64,000 bases of DNA from a virus (taxonomy: Duplodnaviria > Caudoviricetes): the IMG/VR virus record IMGVR_UViG_3300025601_000007. The stretch is one strand, 5' to 3'. Shown piece after piece: positions 12,413-54,998 of the stretch (within the stretch, counting starts at the first letter, position 1; each line of letters opens with the position of its first letter). The translations under genes and the position numbers were made by a program. The notes under the pieces are model-generated. The model was given only the letters and a program-made list of their open reading frames with translations, did no database searches and was not told the origin of the DNA.

Positions 12413-13084
12413 CTAGTGGGCGTAGTGGGCGGAGTGCACATCTTTGGTGAGACCGTAATCCACCATAACAATCTCTGTGTCTCCATCTCTTTGCACGATT
12501 CCCCAGCTAGATAACCTCTGCAAGTCTCTTGTGGGTACTGCAAAGTTTCCGATGTAATCGAATACTCCGTAGGTGAATTCGTTCTCCCACATATCTTCAT
12601 AAATCGAGGGGTCCAAATCAGACTCGTTGTGGTATTCTCCTTTTCTACCATTTACTTTGAATCCATAATCATGCAAGGCTTTCTGGAAATCTGTCCAAAG
12701 GTAGCCTGTGATTGCTTTGAATTTTTTCTCGGTGAGTCTGGAAGCTAATTCCATTTCCACCCAAGTAAATTCACGACTGTGTTCTTTGATGTTCGCAGTG
12801 AGACCATATGTCTGTAAGGAGGAGTCTTCTGCCGCTGTGACTTCTGCTTCGTTTTGCGCCAGACCCTTTACGTTTCTAGCGAGTTTCAAAACCAGCTCGT
12901 CATCTATTTGATACACAATCCTTGAGGAACCGCTTGATATTCTCTTCAATCTGGCTTGGGAATAGTTTATCCTTGCGTTAAACGAACGCAGCATTTTGAA
13001 CTCGTCCATATTGAACGATGCTGGGTAGTCTTCCTCGATGAATTGCTCCCAGAGGATATTGCGGATGTATTTACGAATGTGCAC
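12413..13084 (-). CDS. protein-kinase-like fold protein
   Basis: SGSSRIVY Gly-loop, VLK, NEAE alphaC, DLQRLSSWG, VDYG; N-terminal IRKYIRNILWE; CTATTTAG upstream. Confidence 0.7.
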   Translation of the reverse strand: MHIRKYIRNILWEQFIEEDYPASFNMDEFKMLRSFNARINYSQARLKRISSGSSRIVYQIDDELVLKLARNVKGLAQNEAEVTAAEDSSLQTYGLTANIKEHSREFTWVEMELASRLTEKKFKAITGYLWTDFQKALHDYGFKVNGRKGEYHNESDLDPSIYEDMWENEFTYGVFDYIGNFAVPTRDLQRLSSWGIVQRDGDTEIVMVDYGLTKDVHSAHYAH

Positions 13085-13220
13085 ATATCTAAATAGGGTG
13101 GATTGTTTTAAATCACAGAATGATAAAAGGGGGCGTCCCAGGAGCGAACATTGCCCTAAGGGGCTGTGACAGGTGTTTCCGTGCCCAACATTAGCCAGAA
13201 TGGGGTCAGTCTTTAGTCGC

Positions 13221-13487
13221 CTATTTTAGTTCTAAACTAAACAGCAGGGCCTCGCCTGCTAAATTTCCCTCACGGCCCATTTGTCGGGCTATAAACTCAA
13301 TAGAGTCACTAATCGTGTGATAGGTTATGTCTAAGGTTTTTGATTCTAAAAACAAGTTTCCTGCGGAGTCCTCGAATGAGTCTATTTTATGTTCGAACTT
13401 GTCTTTCAGCGCCAAATGCACTTCGAACATTAACTTTTGCCTGAAAAAATCTTTTGGGTCGGGTGGGTTTGGGAGTTTCAAACGCAT
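13221..13487 (-). CDS. hypothetical protein (MRLKLP)
   Basis: ORF in run. Confidence 0.7.
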   Translation of the reverse strand: MRLKLPNPPDPKDFFRQKLMFEVHLALKDKFEHKIDSFEDSAGNLFLESKTLDITYHTISDSIEFIARQMGREGNLAGEALLFSLELK

Positions 13488-13798
13488 GGGCGCAGAGTTA
13501 TTTTGCCATCACTAAATGGCCCCACAGTAAAGCCTTTCGGGTCCCAAGCAATGATTAAATCGCCGTTGTGTATGCTTAAAAAAAGCTTATCTAGCTGTAC
13601 CCAGGAAAGCATAAAATTGGAATCGGTCACACCAGGAAGGTTGGCTAGGTCGACAAGGCGCATAGGTTTCTTTAGCTTCATTTGAATACGAGTTTCATGT
13701 GCTCCGAAGGCATTATTCCTGTGATGTACGATTGTATGATTTGTGTTTATTAGATTCATTGTAAAACATGGGTAGAGTTTCTGAAAAGGTTTCAGCAT
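13478..13798 (-). CDS. hypothetical protein (start uncertain; internal MKLKKP possible)
   Basis: ORF in run. Confidence 0.55.
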   Translation of the reverse strand: MLKPFQKLYPCFTMNLINTNHTIVHHRNNAFGAHETRIQMKLKKPMRLVDLANLPGVTDSNFMLSWVQLDKLFLSIHNGDLIIAWDPKGFTVGPFSDGKITLRPCV

Positions 13799-14065
13799 TT
13801 ATTTAAAGCCCTTCCACACTAGAGTGATTAATGTGTTTTGCGCGGTACGTCTTTGCCGCGCATTCTTATTATTTTTGAGTATAAAATTTTGATTTGTAAT
13901 ATGGATAAAAAGTTTATCATTCTTTGCTTGAGAAATTATTTCATATCCCCACAACATTAGAGATGTGAAACCACTCCCCCAACGAGGTGTGCTTCTCAGA
14001 CTGCAGAGACGCAAACGTTTTTGTATCCCCAGCGGGGTTATATCGACATTGGCTTTGAACCGCAT
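13799..14065 (-). CDS. hypothetical protein (MRFKAN)
   Basis: ORF in run. Confidence 0.6.
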   Translation of the reverse strand: MRFKANVDITPLGIQKRLRLCSLRSTPRWGSGFTSLMLWGYEIISQAKNDKLFIHITNQNFILKNNKNARQRRTAQNTLITLVWKGFK

Positions 14066-14268
14066 AGTTTTATTAGAAAAATTGGGTCTTCATTTGGAAA
14101 TTCTTTTGTATGTGGAACTGCTTTTGCGATATACCAAAGAGGAGCTCTAACGCTTTCTACACACATCACCCATCCAGAATCCGTCCCATTCCAACGAGAA
14201 GCATATTTGGACATTTCAGAATATCTATTGCTTTCTGCATAAATCCGAACAGGAACTTTTAGTCTCAT
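14038..14268 (-). CDS. hypothetical protein (MRLKVP)
   Basis: ATGA overlap with upstream gene. Confidence 0.65.
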   Translation of the reverse strand: MRLKVPVRIYAESNRYSEMSKYASRWNGTDSGWVMCVESVRAPLWYIAKAVPHTKEFPNEDPIFLIKLCGSKPMSI

Positions 14269-14486
14269 TTACACGTTAATTGAACGAGAAAACTAGACTT
14301 ACTTCTGGTTTCTCTGTTTTTTAAATGCACCACTTTCTTTTCACTTCTTGCATTTAACAATGAGACAGACGCGGATATCTTGTTTATGGTTAGAGGAAAT
14401 TTCCAATACTCACTAACTCCATAACGGTCGTCTTTTTTTCCCAAAATTTCTTCCAAACTTTTCTCTACGTCAATAAACCCTTTCAT
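14265..14486 (-). CDS. hypothetical protein
   Basis: Downstream of ECF promoter 14522. Confidence 0.65.
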   Translation of the reverse strand: MKGFIDVEKSLEEILGKKDDRYGVSEYWKFPLTINKISASVSLLNARSEKKVVHLKNRETRSKSSFLVQLTCK

Positions 14487-14617
14487 TATATTTGCTATTA
14501 AACTTTTTATATCCTGGGTATTATACGTAGAGTAAGTAAAAAAGTTTCATCGTCTAATAAAATCTGGACATTCAATCCCTTTCGGGGGTTCTGTTTGTAT
14601 TTATCCCAATGCTAGCT

Positions 14618-25583: not shown

Positions 25584-26651
25584 TTATTCCCAGTCGATAA
25601 GACGTCTGGATTCCATCAAAAGTTGGTTTACGTGTTCCGCATCAATACTATCTGGCAAGTCGCAGTCAGCAAAGGCTTGTCGCATCTTGTCGATTCCCGC
25701 TTCGGCTTGGGTTAGAATTTCTTCCAAATCCACTTCCCCTTTTCGGATAGAAATAAGGTATTCAGCGTTTGGCCGTTTGATATTGATTGTCTTTTGTTCT
25801 GCAATCTCTACAGCTTCATCAATAAGCCTCATGCAGTGAAGCATGTTTTTCCCATCAATCTTTTGACCATGATTTTTAAGGTCAACGTATCTTTGGGTGT
25901 TGCGTTCTTTCAACCAAACTTCATACGATTTGTAATCAGTTGAGTGTTGCATGAACCCATCCTTGTTGTAGTGAACCATTGTAGCTGGGATTTCTCCCTT
26001 GGGCACACTGCTTAATTTCAAAGCATAGTTCTTCCCTTCTATTCCTCGATAAACCAAATCTGGGTTCTCGGAATAGTACATATTGTATCCGTCTCTGAAG
26101 TGAGGAAGATTAACCAGGCCGCACTTGTCTGGGTCCATTCCCATAGAACTTAGGTATTCCAACAGTGGAATTGATTTACCGCCATCATATGCATAGCAGA
26201 AGTCAATCAAAGACTTCTTTGAGACTCTATCTCGTTCCCAGTTCATCTTTTTCTCTAAGCCACGCGCTTTTTTGATTTGTTGGATTGCATATCCAGCAAA
26301 GCTATGACGACATGCTTTTGTTAGAAAAGCATCTCGATTATCAATAAGATGTTGGAATGCAGGGTGTACGTGTTTCACACAGTCCTCAGGCATCCACAGC
26401 AATTCAATCACTGTAGGATTTGCCGATTGGGCTAGTTGTACGAATCTTTTAAGCTCAAAGTACTCTTCGTCTTTGCTCACTCGCTTTTGCTCTCGATACC
26501 CAAAACTCATTAAGTCTTCTGGGTGCTGAGCATAAACTCCCTTCATATCAACATCGGAGCCCTCAACAGCTGTGCCGTAGGCTTGACTACCAATAATTGT
26601 TTCGAATAAGAGTTGCTCTCTTGAGTTCATTTTGCTGTGCTTTATATACAC
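25584..26651 (-). CDS. Pol-beta-family nucleotidyltransferase (PF10127/RlaP-like)
   Basis: IGSQAYG....SDVDMKGVY; KNMLHCMRL. Confidence 0.85.
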   Translation of the reverse strand: MYIKHSKMNSREQLLFETIIGSQAYGTAVEGSDVDMKGVYAQHPEDLMSFGYREQKRVSKDEEYFELKRFVQLAQSANPTVIELLWMPEDCVKHVHPAFQHLIDNRDAFLTKACRHSFAGYAIQQIKKARGLEKKMNWERDRVSKKSLIDFCYAYDGGKSIPLLEYLSSMGMDPDKCGLVNLPHFRDGYNMYYSENPDLVYRGIEGKNYALKLSSVPKGEIPATMVHYNKDGFMQHSTDYKSYEVWLKERNTQRYVDLKNHGQKIDGKNMLHCMRLIDEAVEIAEQKTINIKRPNAEYLISIRKGEVDLEEILTQAEAGIDKMRQAFADCDLPDSIDAEHVNQLLMESRRLIDWE

Positions 26652-26706
26652 TCACAGCAAATATAATCATAATTCTTATTAAATCAAACTCTGCTTTGGA
26701 GGTAAA

Positions 26707-26973
26707 TTATTTAGCGCTCCCTCTTGTATCAATCGCTGATTTTGGAGGCAGGCCTAGCGGTCCTTTTTTAGATTGCAATGGGCATTCACAGAACGCTACT
26801 CCCTTTTTGTATTCCAACAGTGTAATTGAGGTTACCGATAAATTGTGTTCCATAACTTCTTTGGCAAAACTGTTTTTAGATTTGACATTCATCTTGTGTT
26901 CAATTGCAGCTCTCACCACTCCTTGACAAGTTTGGCATGTGCTCATTTTTACTTTTACATCTTCTGTACTCAT
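26707..26973 (-). CDS. small Cys-containing protein
   Basis: CxxC and CxC. Confidence 0.6.
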   Translation of the reverse strand: MSTEDVKVKMSTCQTCQGVVRAAIEHKMNVKSKNSFAKEVMEHNLSVTSITLLEYKKGVAFCECPLQSKKGPLGLPPKSAIDTRGSAK

Positions 26974-27020
26974 TCTGCTACTTTTTCTTCAAGCCATAAA
27001 AAGTCATGGCTCACTTTTGT

Positions 27021-27182
27021 TTAATTTAGTGTTTGGAGAAAAGGGCAGTATCCGTCTGCGCATCCATTGTGAAACCAACATGAGGTGTGGTTCTCAACGT
27101 TTTTGCATTCTTCATCAAAGTCCGAGCAGCGTTTTGCTGTTGATGCTGGAGCTTGAGTTGGGTATTTAAGTTCTTTTGGCAT
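27021..27182 (-). CDS. small Cys-rich protein (start MPKELK)
   Basis: ATG overlaps upstream gene end. Confidence 0.5.
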   Translation of the reverse strand: MPKELKYPTQAPASTAKRCSDFDEECKNVENHTSCWFHNGCADGYCPFLQTLN

Positions 27183-28323
27183 CGGGCGTAATGTATTTAA
27201 CAACATAAGCCTCCGATGGGCTGGGAACTTCTAGGCCCCTCAAATATCCTTTGATAGTAGATTCTGGTACCTTGTATTCTCTATCGCTGTTTTGCTGTAA
27301 TAGTGTTTTGTAATCTGGCTCAATGTAGACAATCTTCACTTTGTATTTGTAAGTGACAGCCATGTCTATCAACTTGCCTCTGTCGTTCCTTGTGATGTTT
27401 GTGGCATCCCAAATAAAGGGCGTGCTTTTTCTCAAGTAAGTCTTGGCAAGTTCTTTTACGTGCTGAAGCATCTGGCCTTCCGCCTTCTTATCTCCACGCT
27501 TTATTTTCCTTTCCCTTCGAATGGCATCCATAGACACAACAGGAGCACTCCCGTGTCTATCTTTGATGTAGGTTGATTTTCCAGCCCCAGGCAAACCGCA
27601 GAGGATTGTGACCTCGCCTACGTAGTCATCGTATGGCTCGTAGTCTGGGTATGTTTTGTCTTCATCGTAGAAGTATAGGAATTGTCCGAGTTCGCTTTTG
27701 AATTCATACGGCTCGTCCCACACGCTATGGTCCTTACATATCTCTTCAAATATTTCAATCCTCAATAAAAGACTGTCTAGGTCTGCGCAGCTTCTTCCTA
27801 TTGCATCTGCTTTGGCAAACATCCCTAACCATCGGTTTTTGATGTGAAGGCTAGAATCTATTACTGTCTTTGTTGGGTCTTTTTTATCCATTGCCCAAAG
27901 CGGGACTCCGTGCCACCTAACCATCTTGCATATCTTCTCTCGAATCTCAAATGGGCAGTCGAATTCTCTGTAAAGAATGTCTCTGGCGGTGTATTCGCCT
28001 TTCTTGGCGTGTCTTGGGGCCCCAACAACCTCTCTTTTCTCTTCTTCGCTCCACTCTCTGATAGTGGTGCTACGCTTTTCAACGTCGTGAAGTAAGGCTG
28101 ACGCAAATAGGATATGTCGGTCTTGTTCTGATTCCAGATGGAACTCAGGAAGACGCAGGAGTGCTTGCGTAACCATTCTAGTGTGGATGTTCACATTCCC
28201 TTCGGCATGCCAAATAGAGTCTTGTTCCACATCCACCATGTCTTTTACCCACGGGAATGCAGCAGTGATTTCGTCCCACTTGAGGTCGTCTGCGTTATCG
28301 GTATAGAATGGAAATTTAAACAT
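27166..28323 (-). CDS. HD-domain phosphoesterase fused to P-loop (polynucleotide-kinase-like) domain
   Basis: WHAEGNV..HT, LLHDVEK, RHAKKG; LCGLPGAGKST, WDATN. Confidence 0.88.
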   Translation of the reverse strand: MFKFPFYTDNADDLKWDEITAAFPWVKDMVDVEQDSIWHAEGNVNIHTRMVTQALLRLPEFHLESEQDRHILFASALLHDVEKRSTTIREWSEEEKREVVGAPRHAKKGEYTARDILYREFDCPFEIREKICKMVRWHGVPLWAMDKKDPTKTVIDSSLHIKNRWLGMFAKADAIGRSCADLDSLLLRIEIFEEICKDHSVWDEPYEFKSELGQFLYFYDEDKTYPDYEPYDDYVGEVTILCGLPGAGKSTYIKDRHGSAPVVSMDAIRRERKIKRGDKKAEGQMLQHVKELAKTYLRKSTPFIWDATNITRNDRGKLIDMAVTYKYKVKIVYIEPDYKTLLQQNSDREYKVPESTIKGYLRGLEVPSPSEAYVVKYITPDAKRT

Positions 28324-28329
28324 TGCTTT

Positions 28330-28608
28330 TTAACAGGAACGAAGAAGGCTAGAGCCTTGCTTTGTTTTCCCTTTGGTTTCTTCTGTAAATTGAGCGGACA
28401 ACATTGTCCTAATTTCTTTGGTCGATGGCTCCCCTAGGGCTCCAAAGTTGAGTGATAAGAAATCCCTTATCGTCTCTATGAAAACGCTTGTCTCGGTTAC
28501 AAGCTCCAAATGCTTCTTTATCAAAGCGGTTTGGTTGGCTGTCAGTGAATTGGATTCACTAATTTCAAAAAACCCTTGCAACCAATATTCAAAATTCTCT
28601 GCTTTCAT
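28330..28608 (-). CDS. conserved phage hypothetical protein (F.YWLQGFFEI)
   Basis: Downstream of ECF promoter 28614. Confidence 0.75.
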   Translation of the reverse strand: MKAENFEYWLQGFFEISESNSLTANQTALIKKHLELVTETSVFIETIRDFLSLNFGALGEPSTKEIRTMLSAQFTEETKGKTKQGSSLLRSC

Positions 28609-28638
28609 TCTAATGTACGTTTAGATTATACTTTGGTT

Positions 28639-29181
28639 TCATCGTGAGAATGGCCACAAGCCAGTCTTTTCTTTCTCTTGGCGCTCTCCAGCTATCTTTT
28701 CCCACTTTTTATTCTTTATCAACACCATAGTGTTGATATCGTCAAATGATAGACCGAATTCTTTCGCAATAAGAATCGCATCCGTCAAGATTCCTGCTGT
28801 GCTGGAACAGCCTATGCGGTCTGGAGATAGTTCTGTAGTTTTTTTGAAGACCGATATCAACAGCTCAGAGAGAGTCCTGTTGTGTTTCATTGGGATGTTG
28901 ATGTGCTCTAGAACTTTTTCACAATCTTGTGTTTTTATACTAGATGAGTCTAGCCATGAATAAACGCATTGAACTACGTCTGCTAATTCTTCATGGACGC
29001 GGGCGTTTAGCTCCTCTTCAGTTTCTTTAGCCACTTTTCTCCCCAGTCTCTTATTGACCAACTGAGCTAGTTCACCCATCTCCTCCAAGACTTTGCATAA
29101 TCTTAATTCAGGCGTAACAGGGTCCAGAGTGTTAATTCTGCGAACGTCTAAGAAAGCTTCTTTGTATAATTTCGTATTCAT
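28639..29181 (-). CDS. MazG-like NTP pyrophosphatase
   Basis: KVLEEMGELAQ...EELADVVQ. Confidence 0.8.
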   Translation of the reverse strand: MNTKLYKEAFLDVRRINTLDPVTPELRLCKVLEEMGELAQLVNKRLGRKVAKETEEELNARVHEELADVVQCVYSWLDSSSIKTQDCEKVLEHINIPMKHNRTLSELLISVFKKTTELSPDRIGCSSTAGILTDAILIAKEFGLSFDDINTMVLIKNKKWEKIAGERQEKEKTGLWPFSR

Positions 29182-29230
29182 GCAAAGGTAGTTTAAAGTT
29201 TAAACATAAAGTTTTTTTATAAAACAACAA

Positions 29231-29749
29231 TCAGAATCCATACCAGACCATTTTGCTATTTTCCCAATCGAATGTCTTAAAAATGCGGACCAGTTCAAAT
29301 ATAGAATATTCGTACCTCCAACTCGAAACAATCTCGTCTTTATCTTCATCTTCATCTAGACTGTATGGGGGATTGCCTTTTTCCCACTCCCCAATAATGA
29401 GCCCGATGTGTATGGTTGTGGCTTGCGTATCTCTGATTAAAAGGCTTTTGTAATACGCTAAGATTTTAGCTCTATGCCACTCAATAATTTCCAGATATCC
29501 TTCTTTAGATATTAGATGAAAATCGCAATCCTCGTATATGTTTTCGTTGTTTGTGTAAAATTTCTCCAAGTGCTTTTCAATGCCAAGCTCGCGGTATTTT
29601 CCAAAACAATGGAGCTTTTTAAATTCCTCCAGGTCCCGCGCCGAGAAGAAGTCTTCCCCGTATAGTTTTTCAGACTCTTCTTGTGTGAGGTCTTTTCCTT
29701 CTTCGTATTTCTCATTGGGAATGCTCCCTATGTAATTTCTATATCCCAT
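29231..29749 (-). CDS. hypothetical protein
   Basis: 172-aa ORF. Confidence 0.75.
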   Translation of the reverse strand: MGYRNYIGSIPNEKYEEGKDLTQEESEKLYGEDFFSARDLEEFKKLHCFGKYRELGIEKHLEKFYTNNENIYEDCDFHLISKEGYLEIIEWHRAKILAYYKSLLIRDTQATTIHIGLIIGEWEKGNPPYSLDEDEDKDEIVSSWRYEYSIFELVRIFKTFDWENSKMVWYGF

Positions 29750-30092
29750 TATTCAGCTTTTTTAATAACTTGACTATCTCTTTTGAGGAGACTTCTTTTG
29801 CGCCAGATAACAATGCGGAATCAAATTCCTTTCCCGATTTTATATCGTAGTGTGGCCTGCCTTTTCCTTTTTTGTTTTCATACCGACTTCTAGATATGGT
29901 TAAGAATTTTGCAAACAGATGCAGCTTCTCTGGGTTCTCACAAATCATGTGTGACCACTTCCCACTCTTTGTCTCATACTTTCTGGGCGTATCGATGTAT
30001 ATATCAGAATCCAACAATTTGTACAGGTATTCCTTTTTTTTTGGCTCTTTGGATTGTGTCTGCTGTCCCGCTGGAACCATTTGTGAACGCAA
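29739..30092 (-). CDS. DUF4031-like protein (true start probably a CTG/TTG near 30005-30017)
   Basis: IYID...SHM......LH.FA......PHYDI. Confidence 0.7.
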   Translation of the reverse strand: MRSQMVPAGQQTQSKEPKKKEYLYKLLDSDIYIDTPRKYETKSGKWSHMICENPEKLHLFAKFLTISRSRYENKKGKGRPHYDIKSGKEFDSALLSGAKEVSSKEIVKLLKKLNNGI

Positions 30093-30414
30093 TGATGAAA
30101 TTAGAGTTGTCCACTATGGTTTGGTTCCGACTGAACCCCGCCAGAGCGTTGTATGGCTTGCCAAATTTGTTGTATTTAATCTTGCAAGGTTCGGTTGTTA
30201 AGTCATCCCAGTCGGGCTCAAATTCATCGAACGGGATTCCTTTTTCCTTTGCATAATCTATACCAAGTGTATCGGCACCAGCTGCCCCACCAGACACGAT
30301 GTGGCCAATATTGTATTGACTCAAAATGCCTGAAAGCAACTGGTAATCTAGGAACTCCCTAGACCCTACCACGCCAAATCTTAATCTTCCACTTTGTTGC
30401 TTATTGCTGTTCAC
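30004..30414 (-). CDS. SLOG-superfamily (DUF2493/YspA-like) protein
   Basis: VVGSREF...IVSGGAAGADTLG..YA; RNQTIVDNS; SSGTADTI. Confidence 0.85.
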   Translation of the reverse strand: MNSNKQQSGRLRFGVVGSREFLDYQLLSGILSQYNIGHIVSGGAAGADTLGIDYAKEKGIPFDEFEPDWDDLTTEPCKIKYNKFGKPYNALAGFSRNQTIVDNSNFIIAFTNGSSGTADTIQRAKKKGIPVQIVGF

Positions 30415-30424
30415 TGTAATCTCT

Positions 30425-36952: not shown

Positions 36953-37105
36953 ACGCTGTGTTTTAATAAATTACTGTATTAGTGTCCAATATACGTGGAC
37001 AAAGTGAAAAGGTTTCATTATAAGCAAAAACACTGCTTTTGTTTTTAATCACAATCATCTCTATTTATGGTAACCTATTCAGGGGCTTAACGTACATTAT
37101 AGTAA

Positions 37106-38596
37106 TTGAAAGAGAGCAAGATAAATAAAGCTTATAAGAATTTCCGCGACGCAGGACGTGCTGCATTGGATGTGTTAAAAAACGAAGGACCAGAAACAGT
37201 ACACGCTGTTAAATTGCTGTTGAAGCTGGGAGTAGGAAAAAAACTAGAGAAAAGTGAAATGCAGTTTCTAAAAGCGCAGTCTGTTGATATAGGGAAAATG
37301 GTTGCGTTATTTGGTTTGTTTATTATCCCAGGCGGGTCGTTAATTACTTTAATCGCTGCTGAGGGTCTAAAAAAAATAGGAATCAACCCTTACCCTTCAA
37401 ACCAATCACATTTAAGAGAAAACGAAATGATTAGGAAGCAAATACGTAAGATACTAGCTGAACAAATGCTTGGGAAGCAGGAAATAAGGATGCCTTTTGA
37501 CATGTCAATCCCAGAGGACATTTGGGAGCTTAAAAAATACTTTGATGCAGCAGGTAAGAAGCTATATGTGGTCGGCGGTGCCGTGCGTGATGTTTTAACT
37601 GCTAAACAGATAAAGGATTACGATTTGGCGACTGATGCCACTCCAGAAGAGATGATTAAATTTATCCCAAAACACATCTATACAATATTAGAGGCTGGTA
37701 ATATTTTTCCTGTTGTTCACTTGGTTACTCCAGAAAATGGGAGATACGAGATTGCCACTTTCCGTGTTGATGTCGGAACGGACCACCGTAAACCAGAAAC
37801 TCAGTTCTCTACAATCGACCAGGACGTTAAACGTCGTGACTTGACAATGAATGCGTTGTTCTACGATTTAGACACAAAGGAAATTGTTGACCTGGTGGGC
37901 GGAATCGCTGATATCCAGGCTGGAAGGGTTCGGACAGTGGGAGACCCAACTCAAAGATTTGCCGAGAACCAGATAAGAAAGCTTCGAGCATTAAGATTCA
38001 CAGCTAGAATTGGAAGCAAACTGGACCAGAGCATTCAAGACTCTTTGCTTGCCAACCCTTCTTTGGATGAGGAGGCTCCTGAGGCTATTATGGCAGAGGT
38101 GTTAAAAGGTATTGAGCAAGCTAAAAGTGTAAAGCACTTTATGAGCATGGTATTCAAATTTGGTTTAGACAAGTTTGTTTTTAAGGGGATTAAGACAAAC
38201 CCAAGAGGAATTATTGAGGAAAGGGACCCGACTTTGCTGTATGCTTCTCTCTTTAGAAACTCAGACCCAGGAAAATTGAGAGATGCGATTAAATCAAGGT
38301 TGAAATATTCTGATGACTTTGCAAAGCGCGTTATGTTTTTTGTAAAATTTATAGACTTTGAGCCAGGAAGAATTATGGAGTTCTACAAGCTTAATCAAGC
38401 TACAGCACATGTGTCTGAGGAAGATTTGGTGAGAGCAGGGGAGATTCTTGGATACGATAGCAAAATGGTTTCGGCGTTCTTTGAGTTCGCCCCAATTGCT
38501 GACGCAGATGAGCTGATGGCTCAAGGCTTTAAAGGCCAGGAGCTAGGGAAAGCAATGAAGGCGGTTGAGGTGAAACACTTCCTAAACCTATTATAG
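37106..38596 (+). CDS. cca: CCA-adding tRNA nucleotidyltransferase with N-terminal LETM1-like hydrophobic module
   Basis: YVVGGAVRD, DYDLATDA, EIATFR, RRDLTMNA, DLVGGIADI, ENQIRKLRALRF; N-terminal ~105 aa with D.GK.V..F..FIIPGGS. Confidence 0.88.
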   Translation: MKESKINKAYKNFRDAGRAALDVLKNEGPETVHAVKLLLKLGVGKKLEKSEMQFLKAQSVDIGKMVALFGLFIIPGGSLITLIAAEGLKKIGINPYPSNQSHLRENEMIRKQIRKILAEQMLGKQEIRMPFDMSIPEDIWELKKYFDAAGKKLYVVGGAVRDVLTAKQIKDYDLATDATPEEMIKFIPKHIYTILEAGNIFPVVHLVTPENGRYEIATFRVDVGTDHRKPETQFSTIDQDVKRRDLTMNALFYDLDTKEIVDLVGGIADIQAGRVRTVGDPTQRFAENQIRKLRALRFTARIGSKLDQSIQDSLLANPSLDEEAPEAIMAEVLKGIEQAKSVKHFMSMVFKFGLDKFVFKGIKTNPRGIIEERDPTLLYASLFRNSDPGKLRDAIKSRLKYSDDFAKRVMFFVKFIDFEPGRIMEFYKLNQATAHVSEEDLVRAGEILGYDSKMVSAFFEFAPIADADELMAQGFKGQELGKAMKAVEVKHFLNLL

Positions 38597-38647: not shown

Positions 38648-38929
38648 ATGTACGCAACCAATGCTTTTGCTATCAGAAAAATCGTTCGTGAGATACTTAT
38701 AGAAAAGCATTTTTATGAAGGATTTGGCTTCGACCACAACATTGATGGGAAAAATGTTCCTGATTTAGAATCGTGGATGCTAAACGTTACTGATAAGCTG
38801 CGCTCAGCCACAGATATCTATAAAGACATCCAGGCGAGTGTTGAGCAGAGAGGTGCATTGGTTAAAAGTCATCAAAATTCGTCACAAACACTGGAGTCCC
38901 CTCCGACAACCCCAGGCCTAGAGTGTTAA
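38648..38929 (+). CDS. hypothetical late protein (IRKIVREILIE)
   Basis: CTATTTAT at 38626; overlaps convergent gene. Confidence 0.6.
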   Translation: MYATNAFAIRKIVREILIEKHFYEGFGFDHNIDGKNVPDLESWMLNVTDKLRSATDIYKDIQASVEQRGALVKSHQNSSQTLESPPTTPGLEC

Positions 38930-39243: not shown

Positions 39244-39654
39244 ATGACTAAAGAAGAATTTAAGAGATATGTTCTAGCTGAAGCTAAGAAGCAATTAGCG
39301 AAAGAACAGAATTCTGCGCCTAATACACAGGTTATAAACGAAGGGGCTGATGGGGAATACATTGACTCGGATGCTATTTTTAAACTAGCTCAAGAGATGA
39401 AGTCTATCAACAAATCACTTGCAATGGATAATCCTTTGATTTATGAAGGGAACATTGTCGATGACATTGTTGGAAAAAGTGAAGTTCGTAAGCTCACCAC
39501 TCCAGTTGGAAGAGAATACAATATCGACTTGAAAGACAGTATTAGTGAGACAATGACGAATTACAATGACCAAAAGAAGGTTATCAACAAAGATTCTACG
39601 TCGGAAGACAAATGGAATCATCTTGTAAATTATAAAAGACTAGGAAAAGACTAA
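39244..39654 (+). CDS. putative head-associated protein
   Basis: CTATTTAT at 39210; multiple I/L-x-E sites. Confidence 0.7.
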   Translation: MTKEEFKRYVLAEAKKQLAKEQNSAPNTQVINEGADGEYIDSDAIFKLAQEMKSINKSLAMDNPLIYEGNIVDDIVGKSEVRKLTTPVGREYNIDLKDSISETMTNYNDQKKVINKDSTSEDKWNHLVNYKRLGKD

Positions 39655-39727: not shown

Positions 39728-40042
39728 ATGAGTTATCAATCTATTCGAAACCTAGTCAACCAGGTTATAAAAGAGCATTTATCCCCAGACGTCGTAAAAG
39801 ACTTGGAAACTATTAATGGTAGCGTAGGAGAACTTTCAGAAGCTGAGTTAAACATTGCTAAGGAGGCTTTTTCTAATATCCCACATCTTCAGTCTGAGTC
39901 GGATGACCAATACGCCGATTTCCAAGGAAAAAATGTGCAATTAAATTCTCCATCAAAAGGGGAGCAGCGTGACTACATGGCGTATATCCAAAAAGAAGGA
40001 AAAACCGTTAAAGTTCATTTTGACGCGAAAAGTGTATCATAA
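39728..40042 (+). CDS. putative head-associated protein (IRNLVNQVIKE)
   Basis: TTATTTAT upstream. Confidence 0.7.
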   Translation: MSYQSIRNLVNQVIKEHLSPDVVKDLETINGSVGELSEAELNIAKEAFSNIPHLQSESDDQYADFQGKNVQLNSPSKGEQRDYMAYIQKEGKTVKVHFDAKSVS

Positions 40043-40710: not shown

Positions 40711-41412
40711 ATGGCTCAAATTAGAGGTGTAGACTGTGGCTTGAACAACTGGGATGTTGACTTTCCTTTCGGAAAAGAAAGAGAAGCAATGACAGTCAAA
40801 TTTCTACAGCAGAAATTTGGGATGGCTTTTATTGACTATGAAGACTCTAAAACACACGATTTAGAAATGGTTGAGCCTAAGTTCGGCAGCACGCTGTGGA
40901 TTGAAGTGAAAAGAGACCGTTACGAATCTGGCAATATGGTTGTCGAATACTCAGGAAAGTGGGGCCCGTCTGGAATAAGTACAACTCTTTCTCATTTTTG
41001 GGTTCAATTCTTCGAAGACACACAGGAATATTGGATAATAGAAACAAATAAATTAAGAAGGCTTCTCAACAGTCAGCGACAGAAAAAGAACGTTTTTTGG
41101 AGAGGAAGAGGTGGAGACCACGGAGCTACCTGGATGTATTTCCTAAAGAGAGCTTGTTTTCATGGTCAATTTAAGATATATAAGAAGATTGACAGTGAAT
41201 TTATGAGAGTTTATTGGTCAACCCCTACAGGAGCAAAAGCGCAGACTATTTATCACAAAGAGCTTTTTTGTGAAAAATTATACTCAGAACGAAACCCCGC
41301 GCAACCTTACGCAATCTACCCGCCATTCATTAGGAGCCCAGAACTCAAAGGGTGCCGTAAGGTATTCGGCCCCAGCTCGCCTACGCAAGACTTTGGGAGA
41401 AGTAGAGATTGA
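40711..41412 (+). CDS. PD-(D/E)XK nuclease-like protein (paralogue)
   Basis: HDLEM...IEVKRD..SGNMVVE..SGISTT. Confidence 0.7.
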   Translation: MAQIRGVDCGLNNWDVDFPFGKEREAMTVKFLQQKFGMAFIDYEDSKTHDLEMVEPKFGSTLWIEVKRDRYESGNMVVEYSGKWGPSGISTTLSHFWVQFFEDTQEYWIIETNKLRRLLNSQRQKKNVFWRGRGGDHGATWMYFLKRACFHGQFKIYKKIDSEFMRVYWSTPTGAKAQTIYHKELFCEKLYSERNPAQPYAIYPPFIRSPELKGCRKVFGPSSPTQDFGRSRD

Positions 41413-42661
41413 CCAAGTAGAGTTTGATTCTGATGTCATTAAAGCAACTTTGTCCCCAAGCATGTGGGAGAGCGGAAAGCTTAAACCAGAAGTAAGAAAA
41501 AAACTTCTCAAAGCAGCAAAAGCATATTACGACTACTTAGACATTGAGCCAGTAAAGCTTAAAGATATTACAATCACAGGCTCAATGGCAAACTACAATT
41601 ACCACGACCTATCAGACATCGATGTCCATTTAATTCTAGATTATGCTGATGTCGATGATAATGTAGAGTTTGTAGGTGAGTTTTTCGCTGCCAAGAAAGC
41701 TTTTTGGGAAATCAAGCACGACATTAAAATAAAAGGACACGACCTAGAGTTTTATGCCCAGGACTCTGACCAAGAGCATCATTCTACTGGTGTTTTTTCA
41801 CTGGTCAAAAACGAATGGAATCTCAAGCCTAATCGTCAGGACTCTTTAAAGGTGGATGCGGAACAAGTTCGAAAAAAAGCTGCAGACATGATGACCAAGA
41901 TAGACCACATTGTCGACATGTCTCCTTCTCAGGTTCAGATTGAAACAATCAGAGCTATGAAGGAGAAGTTGAAAACACTGCGCCAGGCGGGACTCAATTC
42001 ATCGGCGCAGGAGTTTTCTGTAGAGAACATTGTGTTTAAGATACTTAGAAACACTGGCTATCTTCAAAAGTTGTCTGATGCCAAATTGTACGCGACAGAC
42101 TCTGAACTGTCTTTAGATGAGAAACGCACAAACGAACACGGTTTACCTGGGGAATTAAATCCAAGAATTGCGGATGCCGCAACCACCAGCACCAGCACGC
42201 AGTTTGGTGAGATTCCAGTTTCAACACGAGAAGGAGCAGAAGGTGGAAAAGACATAAACACTCTGATGGTCCAAGATGGTATCGAAGATATGTCTGATGA
42301 TAAAATCAACATAATTAAGGACTTTATCTCTTTTACCAGAGACAAGCTAGGGCTTAAGGCACCAGTTAAGGTTGGACTTAGAAAAGGAAGAGACGAGTAC
42401 ATTAAGACTACGGCATCGTATTTACCGTTTGAGAACGAGAACTACGTTCGTTGCGAAGGTAGAGCCCTTGTTGATATCCTTAGAAGCATAGGGCACGAGC
42501 TTACGCACAATAGACAACGAGAGATAGGCATATTTGACCCAGGCGATAATGTGCAAAACATTGGAGGCCATATTGAGGACCAAGCAAATTCTATTGCTGG
42601 AATCTTGATTAAAGACTTTGTCGATAATCATGGATACGAACACATTCACGAAATGTACTAA
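41270..42661 (+). CDS. Pol-beta nucleotidyltransferase fused to C-terminal HExxH metallopeptidase-like domain
   Basis: ITGSMANYNY..LSDIDVHL; SIGHELTH; CTATTTAT at 41246. Confidence 0.82.
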   Translation: MKNYTQNETPRNLTQSTRHSLGAQNSKGAVRYSAPARLRKTLGEVEIDQVEFDSDVIKATLSPSMWESGKLKPEVRKKLLKAAKAYYDYLDIEPVKLKDITITGSMANYNYHDLSDIDVHLILDYADVDDNVEFVGEFFAAKKAFWEIKHDIKIKGHDLEFYAQDSDQEHHSTGVFSLVKNEWNLKPNRQDSLKVDAEQVRKKAADMMTKIDHIVDMSPSQVQIETIRAMKEKLKTLRQAGLNSSAQEFSVENIVFKILRNTGYLQKLSDAKLYATDSELSLDEKRTNEHGLPGELNPRIADAATTSTSTQFGEIPVSTREGAEGGKDINTLMVQDGIEDMSDDKINIIKDFISFTRDKLGLKAPVKVGLRKGRDEYIKTTASYLPFENENYVRCEGRALVDILRSIGHELTHNRQREIGIFDPGDNVQNIGGHIEDQANSIAGILIKDFVDNHGYEHIHEMY

Positions 42662-48310: not shown

Positions 48311-48799
48311 TTATTTCAAATTAATACTATATTTTTGAATATTTTTACTTATATAATCTTTTGCTGATTGGTATTCGTTAATATCATATTCAAAACTTTC
48401 TTCAGATGCAAACTCTTTACCTGCATAATTATCTATCAAATATTTAGAGTTTGTTATGTCCCAATCAATAACTGGATTTATATCATAAAAATCTTCATAT
48501 AAATCTTTAAGTTTTCTAACACCTCTTGCATCAATTATAATATTATGGTTATTTGGATGATAGCAAAAGGCATGAACAAAATTGAAATTATATTCAGCAT
48601 CTTCATCAACATCTTCAAATTCATCGTTAATTACCGCTATTTGATATTGTGGAAATATTTCATTCAACGCAACACAAAATGGAATACATTCACCACTCAT
48701 CCATTGTTCAATATCATTTTCATTTATTGTGTGATTTTCATTCACAAACTGCTTAAAGTTCTTAACTTTATCAATTATTTTACGCATATCTTCACTCAT
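48311..48799 (-). CDS. cassette protein with papain/transglutaminase-like C-H-D pattern and capsid-targeting-like N-terminus
   Basis: GECIPFCVAL, HAFC, IIDARG; KNFKQFVNE; ATATTTAT upstream. Confidence 0.65.
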   Translation of the reverse strand: MSEDMRKIIDKVKNFKQFVNENHTINENDIEQWMSGECIPFCVALNEIFPQYQIAVINDEFEDVDEDAEYNFNFVHAFCYHPNNHNIIIDARGVRKLKDLYEDFYDINPVIDWDITNSKYLIDNYAGKEFASEESFEYDINEYQSAKDYISKNIQKYSINLK

Positions 48800-48907
48800 A
48801 GTTTCTTTATATATAAATATTCGGTTTTTAAAACTCCACTCTAAAATTCTTTTTATTTTTCTTTCGTGTTTCAAATCAACATTATCAGTTAATAAATCGG
48901 CACGAGA

Positions 48908-49008: not shown

Positions 49009-49449
49009 TTACATTAGTGATTCCAAATAACCTTTTTCTATAATATTTTCCAAACCATTAAATTCTAAATTAGTATCAATTTTAAAAACATTACCATTAG
49101 ATGGTTCAGAATAATAATCAGTATAACCTTCACCAACCACAATAACATCATTAATTAAAGTACTATTTAATAATGAATCAAAAACTCTATGATAACCATC
49201 AACTAAAAACAATAAATTATTATCAGTTCTCCAAACATTTAAAGGTTCTTTATTACTATGTGATTTTTTACCATCAATAAAATTATTAAAAACCCCCATT
49301 AAACTTCTTTTACTCAATATTAATTCATTTATGTTAATCTTTAATAAATCATAATATTCGTCACTTTCTTCATCATAATATTTATTCTCATTCAAGAACT
49401 TACCAAAGTTCTTAACCTTATTTATTTGTTCTCTCATTTCTTTACTCAT
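49009..49449 (-). CDS. cassette protein with ParB-like (DGYHR) motif and capsid-targeting-like N-terminus
   Basis: LFLVDGYHR; KNFGKFLNE. Confidence 0.7.
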   Translation of the reverse strand: MSKEMREQINKVKNFGKFLNENKYYDEESDEYYDLLKININELILSKRSLMGVFNNFIDGKKSHSNKEPLNVWRTDNNLLFLVDGYHRVFDSLLNSTLINDVIVVGEGYTDYYSEPSNGNVFKIDTNLEFNGLENIIEKGYLESLM

Positions 49450-49482
49450 AACATTTCTTTATATATACATTCCGCTGTGTGT
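49444..49482. repeat. collapsed attC-like site 5
   Basis: actcataac...gctgtgtgt with a very short arm; the ATG of 49009..49449 sits in the R box. Confidence 0.4.
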
Positions 49483-50946: not shown

Positions 50947-51222
50947 CTATTTAGTTTCATAAAACATAGCACCTTTTTCCTTAGCGAAATTTTTTATGTA
51001 ATTTATCATTTGTGTTGAATAGTCATTCCCTCTAAATTCTCCATCAACACTAATCATCGCCAAATAAAACTCTTTTTCGAGATTTGGTAAATATTCTGAA
51101 AATTGACCACCGTCATAATAATATTCAATATACCCAATTTTATCATCACCATCTAACTTATATTGTGATTTTTCATTCAAATATTCACGTATAGTTGTTG
51201 CTATAAATTTTCGTATTTCCAT
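50947..51222 (-). CDS. truncated GNAT-like protein with capsid-targeting-like N-terminus
   Basis: ISVDGEFRGNDYS...AKEKG; IRKFIATTIREYLNE. Confidence 0.55.
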   Translation of the reverse strand: MEIRKFIATTIREYLNEKSQYKLDGDDKIGYIEYYYDGGQFSEYLPNLEKEFYLAMISVDGEFRGNDYSTQMINYIKNFAKEKGAMFYETK

Positions 51223-53025: not shown

Positions 53026-53028
53026 GAG

Positions 53029-53301
53029 ATGGAAAACAAAAAATCAAACCTAAGCGAAACTGAAGAAGAAGCTCTGAGAAATTACATTCGTGAGCTCATG
53101 GTCAAAGACTTGGGTGAACATGATGCTTTATACACTAAGCCTAAGCATTGGAAAGACGAAGTAGCAGACCTGAGGACTGATATGACTCAACTATTACAAC
53201 ATATTGAGGATGACGAGTACCAAGATGGAGTTGAAAATATTGACCGAGTAACTTCTAAATTGAAATCTTGGAAAAACAAAATAAAAAAATACCTGAACTA
53301 A
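53029..53301 (+). CDS. hypothetical protein
   Basis: LRNYIRELM motif. Confidence 0.7.
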   Translation: MENKKSNLSETEEEALRNYIRELMVKDLGEHDALYTKPKHWKDEVADLRTDMTQLLQHIEDDEYQDGVENIDRVTSKLKSWKNKIKKYLN

Positions 53302-54239
53302 TCACAGTGCTGGCTGTTGGAGGGAATGGCTGATATATGTGGAGGAAGCTCGAAATGAGGATGATGCTCCTGAATCTTGACTACGTTGTTTTCATCTAAT
53401 TGAGACAGGTCCACAAGGGCTTTGTAGTTTTTTAAATAATGTATTAACAGCAATTCTATTCCGTATGGAGTTAATTCCTTTATTCTCGCTCTCATTGCCA
53501 AATGTAGTTCTTCATAGTCAAAGTTTGCCATAAGCTTCACTAACTCGTACACGTCCGCATCTAAAAATATAACTGGGTCCATGTGTTCATACATCTGCGG
53601 TTGACTCTCTAATATAAACCTCCAGTCCGTTGTTTTAAGCGCTGATAAACTCACTAGGTGTATAAACACCTCTCCCGTTGCTGCAAGCAGCTCTCCTATT
53701 TGAAGATTGTTGAACTTCTGATACGGAACACTCATCACTACTTTTTTTTGAAACCCATATGCCTTTGCAATCTGAAACCCTTGGATGTAAGAGAAGTTGT
53801 ATTTGTGAATGTCTATTTTATCCAAAAAATACTTAAGTCCCATAAGCAGTAAGGAGTGGGCTTCTTCTTGATTGATGCTAGATATCTGAATCCCTAAAAA
53901 GCTTAGTAAATCTGGCCTTCGTTTTAAGATGTGCATAACATCGCCAACTCTAAGCCCTCTTTCTTTTAGCTTAATGTGGCTTTCAATAAACTCTGTTTCC
54001 TGATTGTCAATTAGCCTGACCACACAGCGAACTAATTTTCGTACAGGCATACTATTCCAGAGAACTTTGTCTCGAACATAAGAGCAATCACAAATAGTTT
54101 TATCACTCAACCTCTCAATATCTACTTTTGACATCAAGTGACTCATTTCGCCTTCTTCAAAGTATTCCCAACAGTTTTCTATGAAGTAGTATGTAAATGC
54201 CTCAGCTATGTGTCTGACTTTATCTTTTTTTGAAGACAT
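53298..54239 (-). CDS. hypothetical helical protein
   Basis: 313-aa ORF. Confidence 0.8.
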   Translation of the reverse strand: MSSKKDKVRHIAEAFTYYFIENCWEYFEEGEMSHLMSKVDIERLSDKTICDCSYVRDKVLWNSMPVRKLVRCVVRLIDNQETEFIESHIKLKERGLRVGDVMHILKRRPDLLSFLGIQISSINQEEAHSLLLMGLKYFLDKIDIHKYNFSYIQGFQIAKAYGFQKKVVMSVPYQKFNNLQIGELLAATGEVFIHLVSLSALKTTDWRFILESQPQMYEHMDPVIFLDADVYELVKLMANFDYEELHLAMRARIKELTPYGIELLLIHYLKNYKALVDLSQLDENNVVKIQEHHPHFELPPHISAIPSNSQHCD

Positions 54240-54269
54240 TTGATTTTCTCATTTTATTAAATTATTATA

Positions 54270-54578
54270 GTGGCACAACAAGAAAATGTAAAGATGGCAA
54301 AACAAGAGATAAATATAGAAGAACTGGTTGGGAAAATATATTTCCAAATTGCAACATGGCACGGTGAGACTTCAGAATATCAAGAAGAAGAAAACAAAAT
54401 TCGCTTGCAAGCCGCAAGCTTTAAAATCATCAAGACTGTTTTTTCTGAAATAGGGATAAATCTTCACGAAGAGGAAAAGAAAAATGTTAAAGGTACAGAA
54501 CAAGACGATAAAATGGAGGGAGTTCAATCCAAGTTGTCAGGCATCGCTGCAAGGCTTAAATCCGAAGGATTTATTTAG
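54270..54578 (+). CDS. hypothetical protein
   Basis: ORF. Confidence 0.7.
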   Translation: MAQQENVKMAKQEINIEELVGKIYFQIATWHGETSEYQEEENKIRLQAASFKIIKTVFSEIGINLHEEEKKNVKGTEQDDKMEGVQSKLSGIAARLKSEGFI

Positions 54579-54638
54579 CAATATAAACGCTTATTGATAG
54601 GTGTTTTTCTCGCCTATTTATAGGAAACAACAACGGCT

Positions 54639-54998
54639 ATGAATAAGTCAACCAAACAACGCAACATGGAGCTGCTCGGACTTTCCGAGGGGGTCAATCT
54701 AAAGTCGCTTCAAAACGATTCATTTAAGCATTTGAGTGAATCCTATGAGGAACAAAAGAGTGACGAAGCTAATAAAGAAGGGATGACTGTTGAAGATTTT
54801 GAGCAAAAAAGTTTTAAATCACGCGAAGAAGACTCCGTGCTTTATGACCTTACAAATGAAACATTTGAAATCATGGTTGTAGACGAACTAATTAGCGAGG
54901 GGCACAGTGAGTTTAAATCAAGTGATGACTACGAAAATATTTCAACGAAGAAAGCTAAGGGTTTAATTAGAAAATTTATCTCCTCCTTAGATACTTAG
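54639..54998 (+). CDS. acidic putative head-associated protein
   Basis: CTATTTAT at 54614; RNMELLGLSE. Confidence 0.7.
   Translation: MNKSTKQRNMELLGLSEGVNLKSLQNDSFKHLSESYEEQKSDEANKEGMTVEDFEQKSFKSREEDSVLYDLTNETFEIMVVDELISEGHSEFKSSDDYENISTKKAKGLIRKFISSLDT

What the first reader, a model, noticed from the sequence alone, without database searches (positions are those of the whole stretch)
12413..54998. Shared capsid-targeting-like N-termini on unrelated enzymes
Seen, class A: IRKYIRNILWE (kinase 13084), IRKQIRKILAE (start of the CCA domain), IRKIVREILIE (38648), FKRYVLAE (39244), IRNLVNQVIKE (39728), IRKFIATTIREYLNE (51222), LRNYIRELM (53029). Class B: KNFKQFVNE (48799), KNFGKFLNE (49449), MKNYTQNE (41270). 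Most follow a late box. Established: T4 internal proteins use the CTS MKTYQEFIAE and gp21 cleaves after (I/L)-x-E. Inference: a portable address packages a kinase, a CCA enzyme, an NTase and other cargo in the head for injection with the DNA, giving pre-made counter-defence enzymes.
Basis: partly seen in the sequence, partly recalled or inferred. Interest (0 to 1): 0.7.

Follow-up and report, generated by a model that had tools for sequence, protein, structure and literature searches.

The report
Shared leader peptides on phage enzymes
Several unrelated proteins of an uncultivated giant salt-lake phage carry the same short helix ending in the cut site of T4-type head proteases, so they are probably loaded into the capsid and injected with the DNA as T4 does with its internal proteins, although neither packaging nor cutting has been shown.

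Summary
The core observation is real. Five unrelated window proteins carry an 11-residue peptide of the form I-R-K/N-x-I/V-x-x-h-I/L-x-E, against 0.003 expected. They are a kinase-fold protein, a CCA enzyme, a small GNAT-like protein and two unknowns. Their bodies share no similarity and their codons differ at synonymous sites, so selection acts on the peptide. Two AT-rich cassette genes share a second, T4-CTS-like leader. The CCA copy lies inside a 496-residue ORF, not at its start.

Just past the window the same tag heads an ART-PolyVal protein and a 195-residue protein, and sits between modules of a 591-residue protein. In related uncultivated T4-like phages, such leaders end in hydrophobic-x-Glu, sit exactly at the edge of the conserved body, are swapped between lineages, and occur on genes inside head operons next to a gp21-type protease.

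The best reading (about 0.6) is a lineage-specific version of the T4 capsid-targeting and protease-processed leader. This phage's own protease was not reached, and no virion data exist. Earlier notes of this scan describe the same phenomenon on other genomes.

The parts
12413..13084 (-). Kinase-fold protein (223 aa, GTG start). The class A tag is residues 3-13 (nt 13046-13078). A second I-E-E site ends at residue 18, and the conserved body starts at D-Y-P.
   Evidence: The family alignment shows a leader before the body. AF2 puts the tag in a separate low-confidence helix, and Foldseek hits APH, MTR-kinase and protein-kinase folds.
37106..38596 (+). 496-aa ORF. It consists of about 107 residues holding a hydrophobic, LETM1-like segment, then ATG 37427, then the class A tag at 37430-37462, then the CCA-adding enzyme.
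   Evidence: PolyA_pol head domain at 113.6 bits, and phrog_2244 starting at residue 43 of the short form. The CTATTTAT box at 37061 lies upstream of the TTG start, not of the internal ATG. Gene callers use the 496-aa form.
38648..38929 (+). 93-aa protein of unknown function. The class A tag is residues 9-19 (nt 38672-38704). A CTATTTAT box lies at 38626.
   Evidence: No Pfam or PHROG family.
39728..40042 (+). 104-aa protein of unknown function. The class A tag is residues 6-16 (nt 39743-39775). A box variant, CTTATTTAT, lies upstream.
50947..51222 (-). 91-aa GNAT-like protein. The class A tag is residues 3-13 (nt 51184-51216), followed by a second L-N-E site. No box lies upstream.
   Evidence: Acetyltransf_1 at 23.2 bits.
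48311..48799 (-). 162-aa cassette protein with the class B leader (residues 1-21, ending F-V-N-E).
   Evidence: A near-identical leader end sits on a CCA enzyme of another phage, L013.
49009..49449 (-). 146-aa cassette protein with the class B leader (residues 1-21, ending F-L-N-E).
39244..39654 (+). 136-aa protein with an N-terminus ending V-L-A-E then A, behind a CTATTTAT box. It is a possible leader, but not significant on its own.
53029..53301 (+). 90-aa protein with a weak class A-like stretch at residues 16-24. Not above chance.
   Evidence: 10.4 bits, equal to the null maximum.
41270..42661 (+). Nucleotidyltransferase-like protein (phrog_36119). The proposed GTG start follows a CTATTTAT box. 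Its N-terminus is not a class A or class B tag.
   Evidence: Gene callers start later, giving 422 aa.
37061..37068 (+). One of 11 CTATTTAT promoter-like boxes. The others are at 38626, 39210, 41246, 42749, 52351, 54614 (plus strand) and 52360, 55974, 59884, 63933 (minus strand).
   Evidence: 11 found against 4.1 expected, and none of 100 shuffles reached 11. Each lies upstream of an ORF start on the same strand.

Best explanation
The IRK-type tag is this phage lineage's version of the leader peptides of T4-type head proteins. It is a short amphipathic helix that docks a protein onto the scaffolding core while the prohead assembles. It ends in the (I/L)-x-Glu site that the gp21-family (Peptidase_S77) prohead protease cuts.

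Proteins that carry the tag at the N-terminus would be co-assembled into the prohead, trimmed, retained with the DNA and released into the host at infection. These are the kinase-fold protein, two small unknowns, the small GNAT-like protein and the neighbouring ART-PolyVal protein. Where the tag lies between modules (the CCA ORF and the 591-aa neighbour), the same cut would separate the modules.

The class B leader on the two AT-rich cassette genes is a second leader type, closer to the canonical T4 form, and was probably imported with its cargo.

Shown: a shared peptide under peptide-level selection on unrelated proteins; its position outside the folded body; its hydrophobic-x-Glu ending; and the occurrence of such leaders in head operons of relatives that have S77 proteases. 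Inferred: binding to the core, cleavage, packaging, ejection, and any counter-defence role.
For: 1. Five class A tags against 0.003 expected, on proteins with unrelated bodies and with different codons.

2. All five end in L/I-x-E. T4's own leaders, read from the T4 record, do the same: IPII and IPIII, gp24 (MAKINELLRE), gp22, gp67, gp68, gp21, and gp23 at its L-T-E site. The role of these leaders in capsid targeting and gp21 processing is established (PMC9026906, PMC5694885, PMC3012670).

3. Just past the window end, the tag heads a 737-aa ART-PolyVal protein (44.9 bits) and a 195-aa protein. It also lies at residue 353 of a 591-aa protein. Polyvalent ART and GNAT proteins are held to be injected with the DNA (PMC5512222, PMC7824862).

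4. In the kinase-like family, 116 homologs have leaders of 3-33 residues before the conserved body. At the boundary, P1 is Glu in 113 of 116 and P3 is L/I/M/V in 113 of 116. Leaders differ between lineages, some members have none, and some are fused behind other modules with a leader-like linker. AF2 shows the tag helix at pLDDT about 60, a linker below 50, and the body above 90.

5. The CCA homologs recovered from other phage contigs (about 30) each have an in-frame N-terminal extension, or an upstream fused ORF, before the body; in about 20 I read a hydrophobic-x-Glu ending by eye. In L012 a class A-like tag joins the CCA domain to a further module.

6. In metagenomic T4-like head operons, the order protease, scaffold, major capsid protein is followed at once by two or three genes that share one leader. 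One of these is a small GNAT. A conserved core-region protein begins with an IRK-type leader that ends exactly at its conserved body. In another phage the same body carries a different leader.

7. A class A DNA pattern found 10 IMG/VR sites, most of them directly after a start Met. One 37-kb contig carries two adjacent class A-tagged genes inside its structural block, together with an S77 protease, a scaffold and a capsid gene. One of those tagged proteins is 45% identical to a module of this phage's 591-aa protein.

8. Cultured phages that carry the kinase-like homolog (XacN1, Alishewanella Slickus01) encode S77 proteases. Slickus01 has six clustered genes with one shared leader ending h-x-E.
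Against: - No virion proteome, cleavage data or expression data exist for this phage.
- Its own prohead protease and head genes lie outside the sequence I could reach. An S77 protease in this genome rests only on an unchecked scan note.
- Hydrophobic-x-Glu is common by chance, so the ending alone is weak evidence.
- The residue after the Glu is Q, K, H, Y, D, I or R here. In the T4 leaders read here it is A, S, T or N.
- The conserved Glu at the edge of the kinase body could be structural rather than a cut site.
- The CCA tag follows a hydrophobic, membrane-like module, which is odd for head cargo.
- Gene 50947-51222 has no upstream box, and 'late' timing of the box is unproven.
- A zincin-like PhageMetallopep gene lies next to the ART-PolyVal gene and could process the multi-module proteins instead (PMC5512222).
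- The XacN1 paper and its supplement give no virion assignment for ORF170.
Confidence: 0.6

Rival explanations
1. The tag is a shared amphipathic helix with some other common role, unrelated to the capsid. It could dock many phage proteins onto one partner (a host or phage hub protein, a chaperone or a membrane surface), or drive self-association.
For: The tag is a predicted free helix on a flexible linker, which suits any docking role. The CCA copy follows a hydrophobic module. Nothing measured links the tag to virions.
Against: This does not explain the near-invariant hydrophobic-x-Glu ending at the exact edge of the cargo. It does not explain the use of the tag as an inter-module joint. It does not explain the placement of leader-bearing genes in head operons beside S77 proteases, or the likeness to T4 gp24 and gp22 propeptides.
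Confidence: 0.2
2. The tags are processing sites or linkers for a different protease, for example the zincin-like PhageMetallopep encoded beside the ART-PolyVal gene. They would serve to split multi-module proteins and would carry no capsid-targeting function.
For: The PhageMetallopep gene lies directly downstream of the ART-PolyVal gene (34.7 bits). Zincin-like peptidases are proposed to process polyvalent proteins (PMC5512222). Two of the eight strong tags are internal.
Against: Most tags sit at the N-terminus of single-domain proteins, where splitting serves no purpose. Tagged genes also occur on contigs and in clusters where no such peptidase was seen. Cutting after Glu behind a hydrophobic P3 is the gp21-family signature (PMC5694885).
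Confidence: 0.1
3. The similarity is chance, compositional bias at gene starts, or a nucleotide-level element such as a recombination site or translation enhancer.
Against: Five hits against 0.003 expected. Synonymous codons differ. The same tag is found in other phage lineages with 27-47% G+C.
Confidence: 0.03

Closest known systems
[quoted passage not shown]
   Same: A short N-terminal leader shared by otherwise unrelated proteins and ending in (L/I)-x-Glu. The cargo is diverse and includes an ADP-ribosyltransferase. Leaders are portable between cargoes.
   Different: The class A sequence is unlike MKTYQEFIAE. Tags start at residue 3-9 rather than at Met1. They also occur between modules. 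The cargo includes larger enzymes (CCA enzyme, kinase fold). Function is untested.
[quoted passage not shown]
   Same: The gp24 propeptide MAKINELLRE and the gp22 start share the same helix-then-L/I-x-E form. In relatives, leader-bearing genes sit beside the protease, scaffold and capsid genes.
   Different: Those are structural or core proteins. Here the bodies are enzymes and small unknowns encoded away from any head module seen.
Polyvalent proteins of phages and conjugative elements (Iyer et al. 2017, PMC5512222)
   Same: ART, GNAT, kinase-like and ParB-like modules are strung together and predicted to be delivered with the DNA. The neighbouring 737-aa protein has the ART-PolyVal domain.
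   Different: That work proposes processing by zincin-like peptidases. I did not find the shared N-terminal tag with a head-protease motif in the passages I searched of that paper.
Propeptides of ejection proteins in phiKZ-like giant phages such as SPN3US (PMC5694885)
   Same: Head-internal proteins carry propeptides removed after Glu by a related protease. Diverged paralogs share identical N-termini.
   Different: The motif there is A/S/G-x-E, the propeptides are often longer than 100 residues, and the phage lineage is different.

Membership tests
T4-type capsid-targeting / gp21-processed leader | The genome encodes a gp21-family (Peptidase_S77) prohead protease. | not tested
   No whole genome is held. 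The head module lies beyond the contigs I could fetch. An unchecked scan note places an intein-bearing protease about 102 kb past the window. The feature is met in relatives: G001, G003, XacN1, Slickus01 and G011.
T4-type capsid-targeting / gp21-processed leader | A short leader is shared by proteins that are otherwise unrelated. | tested here: met
   Five class A and two class B members with unrelated bodies.
T4-type capsid-targeting / gp21-processed leader | The leader ends in (L/I)-x-Glu. | tested here: met
   The endings are L-W-E, L-A-E, L-I-E, I-K-E and I-R-E, and V-N-E and L-N-E for class B. The T4 references were read directly from the T4 record.
T4-type capsid-targeting / gp21-processed leader | The leader lies outside the folded or conserved body of the cargo. 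| tested here: met
   Kinase family boundary statistics and leaderless members. AF2 confidence profile. The CCA profiles start at residues 43-46.
T4-type capsid-targeting / gp21-processed leader | Sequence likeness to the T4 IP capsid-targeting sequence. | tested here: not met
   Class A is unlike MKTYQEFIAE. Class B is only loosely alike. Closer copies such as MKNYSEFINE occur in other loci, not in this window.
T4-type capsid-targeting / gp21-processed leader | Expression at the time of head assembly. | tested here: inconclusive
   A CTATTTAT box precedes three of the five class A genes (one as a one-base variant; a further variant directly abuts the kinase start) and also precedes a fibre-like operon. 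Its timing is unknown.
T4-type capsid-targeting / gp21-processed leader | The protein is found in virions and is trimmed after the Glu. | not testable with these tools
   The phage is uncultivated. The XacN1 paper gives no assignment for the homologous ORF170.
Polyvalent proteins | Several unrelated effector domains in one chain, including ART-PolyVal. | tested here: met
   This holds for the neighbouring 737-aa gene outside the window: ART-PolyVal at 44.9 bits, above the 31.2 cut-off, plus a weak GNAT hit. It does not apply to the single-domain window genes.
Class II CCA-adding enzyme / PolyA_pol | Nucleotidyltransferase head domain. | tested here: met
   PF01743 at 113.6 bits and phrog_2244 at 173.9 bits.
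Protein-kinase-like fold | Bilobal kinase fold with a Gly-rich loop and a conserved Lys. | tested here: inconclusive
   The AF2 model has pLDDT 88.7. Foldseek's best hits are all APH, MTR kinase, choline kinase and protein kinases, with probability about 1 but TM-scores of only 0.27-0.38. There is no Pfam hit.

The most novel reading that the evidence does not exclude
T4-like phages share a degenerate but readable grammar: an amphipathic helix ending in hydrophobic-x-Glu, placed at the N-terminus or between modules. This grammar marks a large, sequence-predictable set of capsid-loaded, injected enzymes. In this phage the set would include a tRNA CCA-repair enzyme, a minimal kinase, acetyltransferases and an ADP-ribosyltransferase. 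Leaders would travel with their cargo between lineages, as the class B cassettes suggest. If so, the injected proteome of uncultivated phages could be read from sequence alone.
Probability: 0.4. Interest if true: 0.75.

Novelty: new variant of a known kind. Interest (0 to 1): 0.6.

Why it matters
T4's targeting sequence is the only well-studied address label for loading proteins into a phage head. It is known for a handful of small proteins and for Alt.

If the IRK-type and related leaders work the same way, giant uncultivated T4-like phages would pre-load whole enzyme sets: tRNA repair, a kinase, acetyltransferases and ADP-ribosyltransferases. The first minutes of infection could then be predicted from sequence.

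It would also give a simple rule for annotating many 'hypothetical' phage proteins. It would provide new tags for packaging foreign proteins into phage capsids. The claim can be tested directly in cultured relatives that carry the same cargo family.

Tried and rejected
- Close relatives. I found none by megablast or tblastn against cultured phages, by an exact 43-mer in IMG/VR, or by IMG/VR scans with the 765-aa and ART proteins.
- This phage's own head protease. No genome is held. Metagenome records could not be searched through their loci. My one metagenome scan returned 80 other T4-like head modules, not this phage's. A search for intein-bearing proteases gave 299 hits; the best candidate cluster sits on contigs of 33.6% G+C, so it is not this phage. 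A look-up by sequence among earlier scan findings found nothing. Extending by 20 kb beyond the window revealed no T4 core gene.
- PHROGs and Pfam. Both gave nothing for the small head-operon proteins or for the late-looking large ORFs.
- XacN1 virion proteomics. The paper does not list the homologous ORF170.
- DNA-level or duplication origin of the tags. Rejected on codon differences.
- Paralogy of the tagged proteins. Rejected by all-against-all BLASTP.
- Complex prediction. Not used, because no scaffold partner from this phage was available.

Full report
**What the window is.** The window has about 39% G+C, small genes on both strands and no tRNA genes. It encodes phage-type nucleotide and NAD metabolism genes: thymidylate synthase, a dNMP-kinase-like protein, NAPRTase and an HD/AAA_33 protein. 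The same sequence occurs in many assemblies of saline-lake metagenomes, on contigs of up to 0.2-1 Mb. It has no close relative among cultured phages or in IMG/VR. No whole genome is held for it.

**The observation.** A pattern written from the class A examples hits five times in the six-frame translation. Every hit is in the sense frame of a real ORF, against 0.003 expected from shuffles. Four hits lie within the first nine residues of the ORF. The fifth, in the CCA gene, lies at residue 109 of a 496-residue ORF, directly after an internal Met. A position matrix separates these five (22.6-31.2 bits) from the null (mean best 10.6, 95th percentile 13.9).

The five proteins share nothing else. 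Their tags use different codons for the same residues. The conserved object is therefore a peptide, not a DNA repeat, a promoter-linked element or a recent duplication. The two class B genes share a 33-residue N-terminus with several synonymous differences, and their bodies are unrelated. The third 'class B' example (41270) rests on a GTG start that gene callers do not use, and it does not fit the motif.

**Cargo.** The CCA enzyme is solid: PolyA_pol head domain at 113.6 bits and a tRNA nucleotidyltransferase PHROG. Both profiles begin 43-46 residues after the tag Met. The 'kinase' has no Pfam family. A confident AF2 model (pLDDT 88.7) matches only kinase-fold structures in Foldseek, though with low TM-scores, so I call it kinase-like. 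Gene 50947-51222 is a short GNAT-like protein. Genes 38648 and 39728 have no known family.

**Promoter-like box.** CTATTTAT occurs 11 times against 4.1 expected. In every case it lies upstream of an ORF start on the same strand, mostly by 5-47 nt. It precedes the long CCA ORF (not the internal ATG), 38648, 39244 and 41270. It also precedes large ORFs, one of which resembles phage fibre proteins, although that match is only a lead. One-base variants precede 39728 and 13084. That the box marks late genes is plausible but not shown.

**Beyond the window.** Using the last window gene as a handle, I fetched the next 20 kb.
- A 737-residue protein with an ART-PolyVal domain (44.9 bits) starts with a class A tag at residue 8.
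- A 195-residue protein has the tag at residue 9.
- A 591-residue protein has the tag at residue 353, between modules.
- A 155-residue protein has a shorter form.
- In some samples the 591-residue ORF is split. Its last 79 residues then form a separate small gene made of two tag-like repeats.

**Comparative evidence.**
- *CCA family.* The CCA homologs recovered from other phage contigs (about 30) each have an in-frame N-terminal extension, or an upstream fused ORF, before the body; in about 20 I read a hydrophobic-x-Glu ending by eye. Several are near copies of the T4 capsid-targeting sequence or of the window's class B leader. In two contigs the CCA domain is fused behind a long upstream ORF. 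In L012 a class A-like tag links the CCA domain to a further module, and another joins a HAD-like module to its neighbour.
- *Kinase-like family.* It has more than 200 metagenomic homologs. Leaders of 3-33 residues precede a sharply conserved body. At the boundary, P1 is Glu in 113 of 116 sequences and P3 is L, I, M or V in 113 of 116. Many leaders hold two or three such sites. Leaders fall into several unrelated types, including class A. A few members have no leader. Others are fused behind ParB-like, GNAT or other modules through leader-like linkers. AF2 places the window tag in a separate helix of low confidence on a disordered linker.
- *Cultured relatives.* Cultured phages with this family (XacN1, Xoo-sp13, Alishewanella Slickus01 and Slicko01) were found by tblastn. 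XacN1 and Slickus01 encode Peptidase_S77. In Slickus01, six clustered genes, including the kinase-like one, begin with one shared leader ending h-x-E.
- *Head operons.* In T4-like head operons recovered with the protease as bait, the order protease, scaffold, capsid protein is followed directly by two or three genes sharing one leader, and one of these is a small GNAT. Small genes after the protease share another leader. A conserved protein begins with an IRK-type leader that stops exactly at its conserved body, and in another phage the same body carries the other leader. Lysozyme-domain proteins carry IRK-type leaders as well.
- *Class A tags elsewhere.* A degenerate DNA pattern for the class A tag found ten IMG/VR sites, most of them directly after a start Met and one at a junction in a large protein. 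One 37-kb contig carries an S77 protease (112.5 bits), a scaffold gene, a capsid gene and a sheath-like gene. Inside that structural block are two adjacent class A-tagged genes. One is 45% identical to the first module of this phage's 591-residue protein.

**Comparison with T4.** I read these leaders from the T4 record itself. IPII and IPIII start MKTYQEFIAE then A. IPI has a 19-residue leader ending I-T-E. gp24 starts MAKINELLRE then S. gp22, gp67, gp68 and gp21 start with helices ending I-A-E, F-A-E, I-P-E and L-I-E. gp23 has its L-T-E site.

The reviews establish three points. These propeptides dock proteins onto the core. The ten-residue IP leader is sufficient to package foreign proteins. 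gp21 removes the leader after Glu (PMC9026906, PMC5694885, PMC3012670). They also state that T-even internal proteins are a diverse set united only by the targeting sequence. The principle is therefore known. What would be new here is the tag sequence, its use between modules, the number of tagged proteins and the enzymatic nature of the cargo. In a full-text search I found no paper that describes such leaders on enzymes of uncultivated T4-like phages.

**Weak points.**
- I could not reach this phage's own protease or head genes. Its T4-type status rests on relatives and on an unchecked scan note.
- Hydrophobic-x-Glu is frequent by chance.
- The residue after the Glu differs from that in the T4 leaders read here.
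- The Glu at the edge of the kinase body could be structural.
- The CCA tag follows a membrane-like module.
- A zincin-like peptidase gene next to the ART-PolyVal gene offers another way to process the multi-module proteins (PMC5512222).
- There are no proteomic data, and the XacN1 paper does not assign the homologous ORF170 to virions.

**Verdict.** The core observation is confirmed; three of the ten listed examples are not above chance and the CCA tag is internal. The capsid-targeting and protease-leader reading is the best-supported explanation (about 0.6), but it is still an inference. It is a new variant of a known kind. Earlier notes of this scan report the same kind of leader on other T4-like genomes. 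I treated those notes as leads, not as evidence.

Noticed in passing
window 37106-37426 (+): The 107 residues in frame ahead of the CCA tag contain a hydrophobic helix pair resembling a LETM1-like module. There is no Pfam hit and no homolog among the fetched loci. The promoter-like box lies ahead of this longer ORF, so a membrane-tethered precursor is possible.
   Followed up: partly
L138:11966-13741 versus L139:11993-13767 (about 68-70 kb on the window scale, minus strand): The 591-aa multi-module gene is split in some samples into 511 aa plus a 79-aa gene. The 79-aa gene consists of two tag-like repeats ending I-T-E and I-S-E.
   Followed up: partly
L138:4058-4624 (-), about 15 kb past the window end: The phage encodes a translation initiation factor IF3 homolog (precomputed Pfam IF3_N and IF3_C).
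   Followed up: no
window 2162-2824 and 3544-4206 (-): Two 220-aa ORFs with identical N-termini, each followed by the same short opposite-strand ORF. This looks like a tandem duplication of about 1.4 kb.
   Followed up: no
window 25584-34188 (-): A cluster of RNA-repair and NAD-salvage genes: a nucleotidyltransferase (phrog_388), an HD plus AAA_33 kinase-like protein, NAD synthase, a CTP_transf_like adenylyltransferase and NAPRTase.
   Followed up: partly
window 8527-9822 (+): A 431-aa ORF with weak tyrosine-integrase PHROG hits (phrog_216, E 1.3e-7) in what otherwise looks like a lytic giant phage.
   Followed up: no
window 48800-48830 and 49450-49480 (-): Both class B cassette genes are preceded by the same TATATATAAAGAAA stretch, about 4 nt ahead of the ATG. 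It differs from the CTATTTAT box. The region has only 30% G+C.
   Followed up: partly
proteins P0001-P0120: Inteins inserted just after the conserved G-E-L-x-H-P motif of gp21-type prohead proteases are common: 299 long forms were found in metagenomes.
   Followed up: partly
window 54639-54998 (+): The 119-aa protein behind a CTATTTAT box has L-I-R-K-F-I near its C-terminus, a partial class A-like string at the opposite end of the protein. It is not significant on its own.
   Followed up: no
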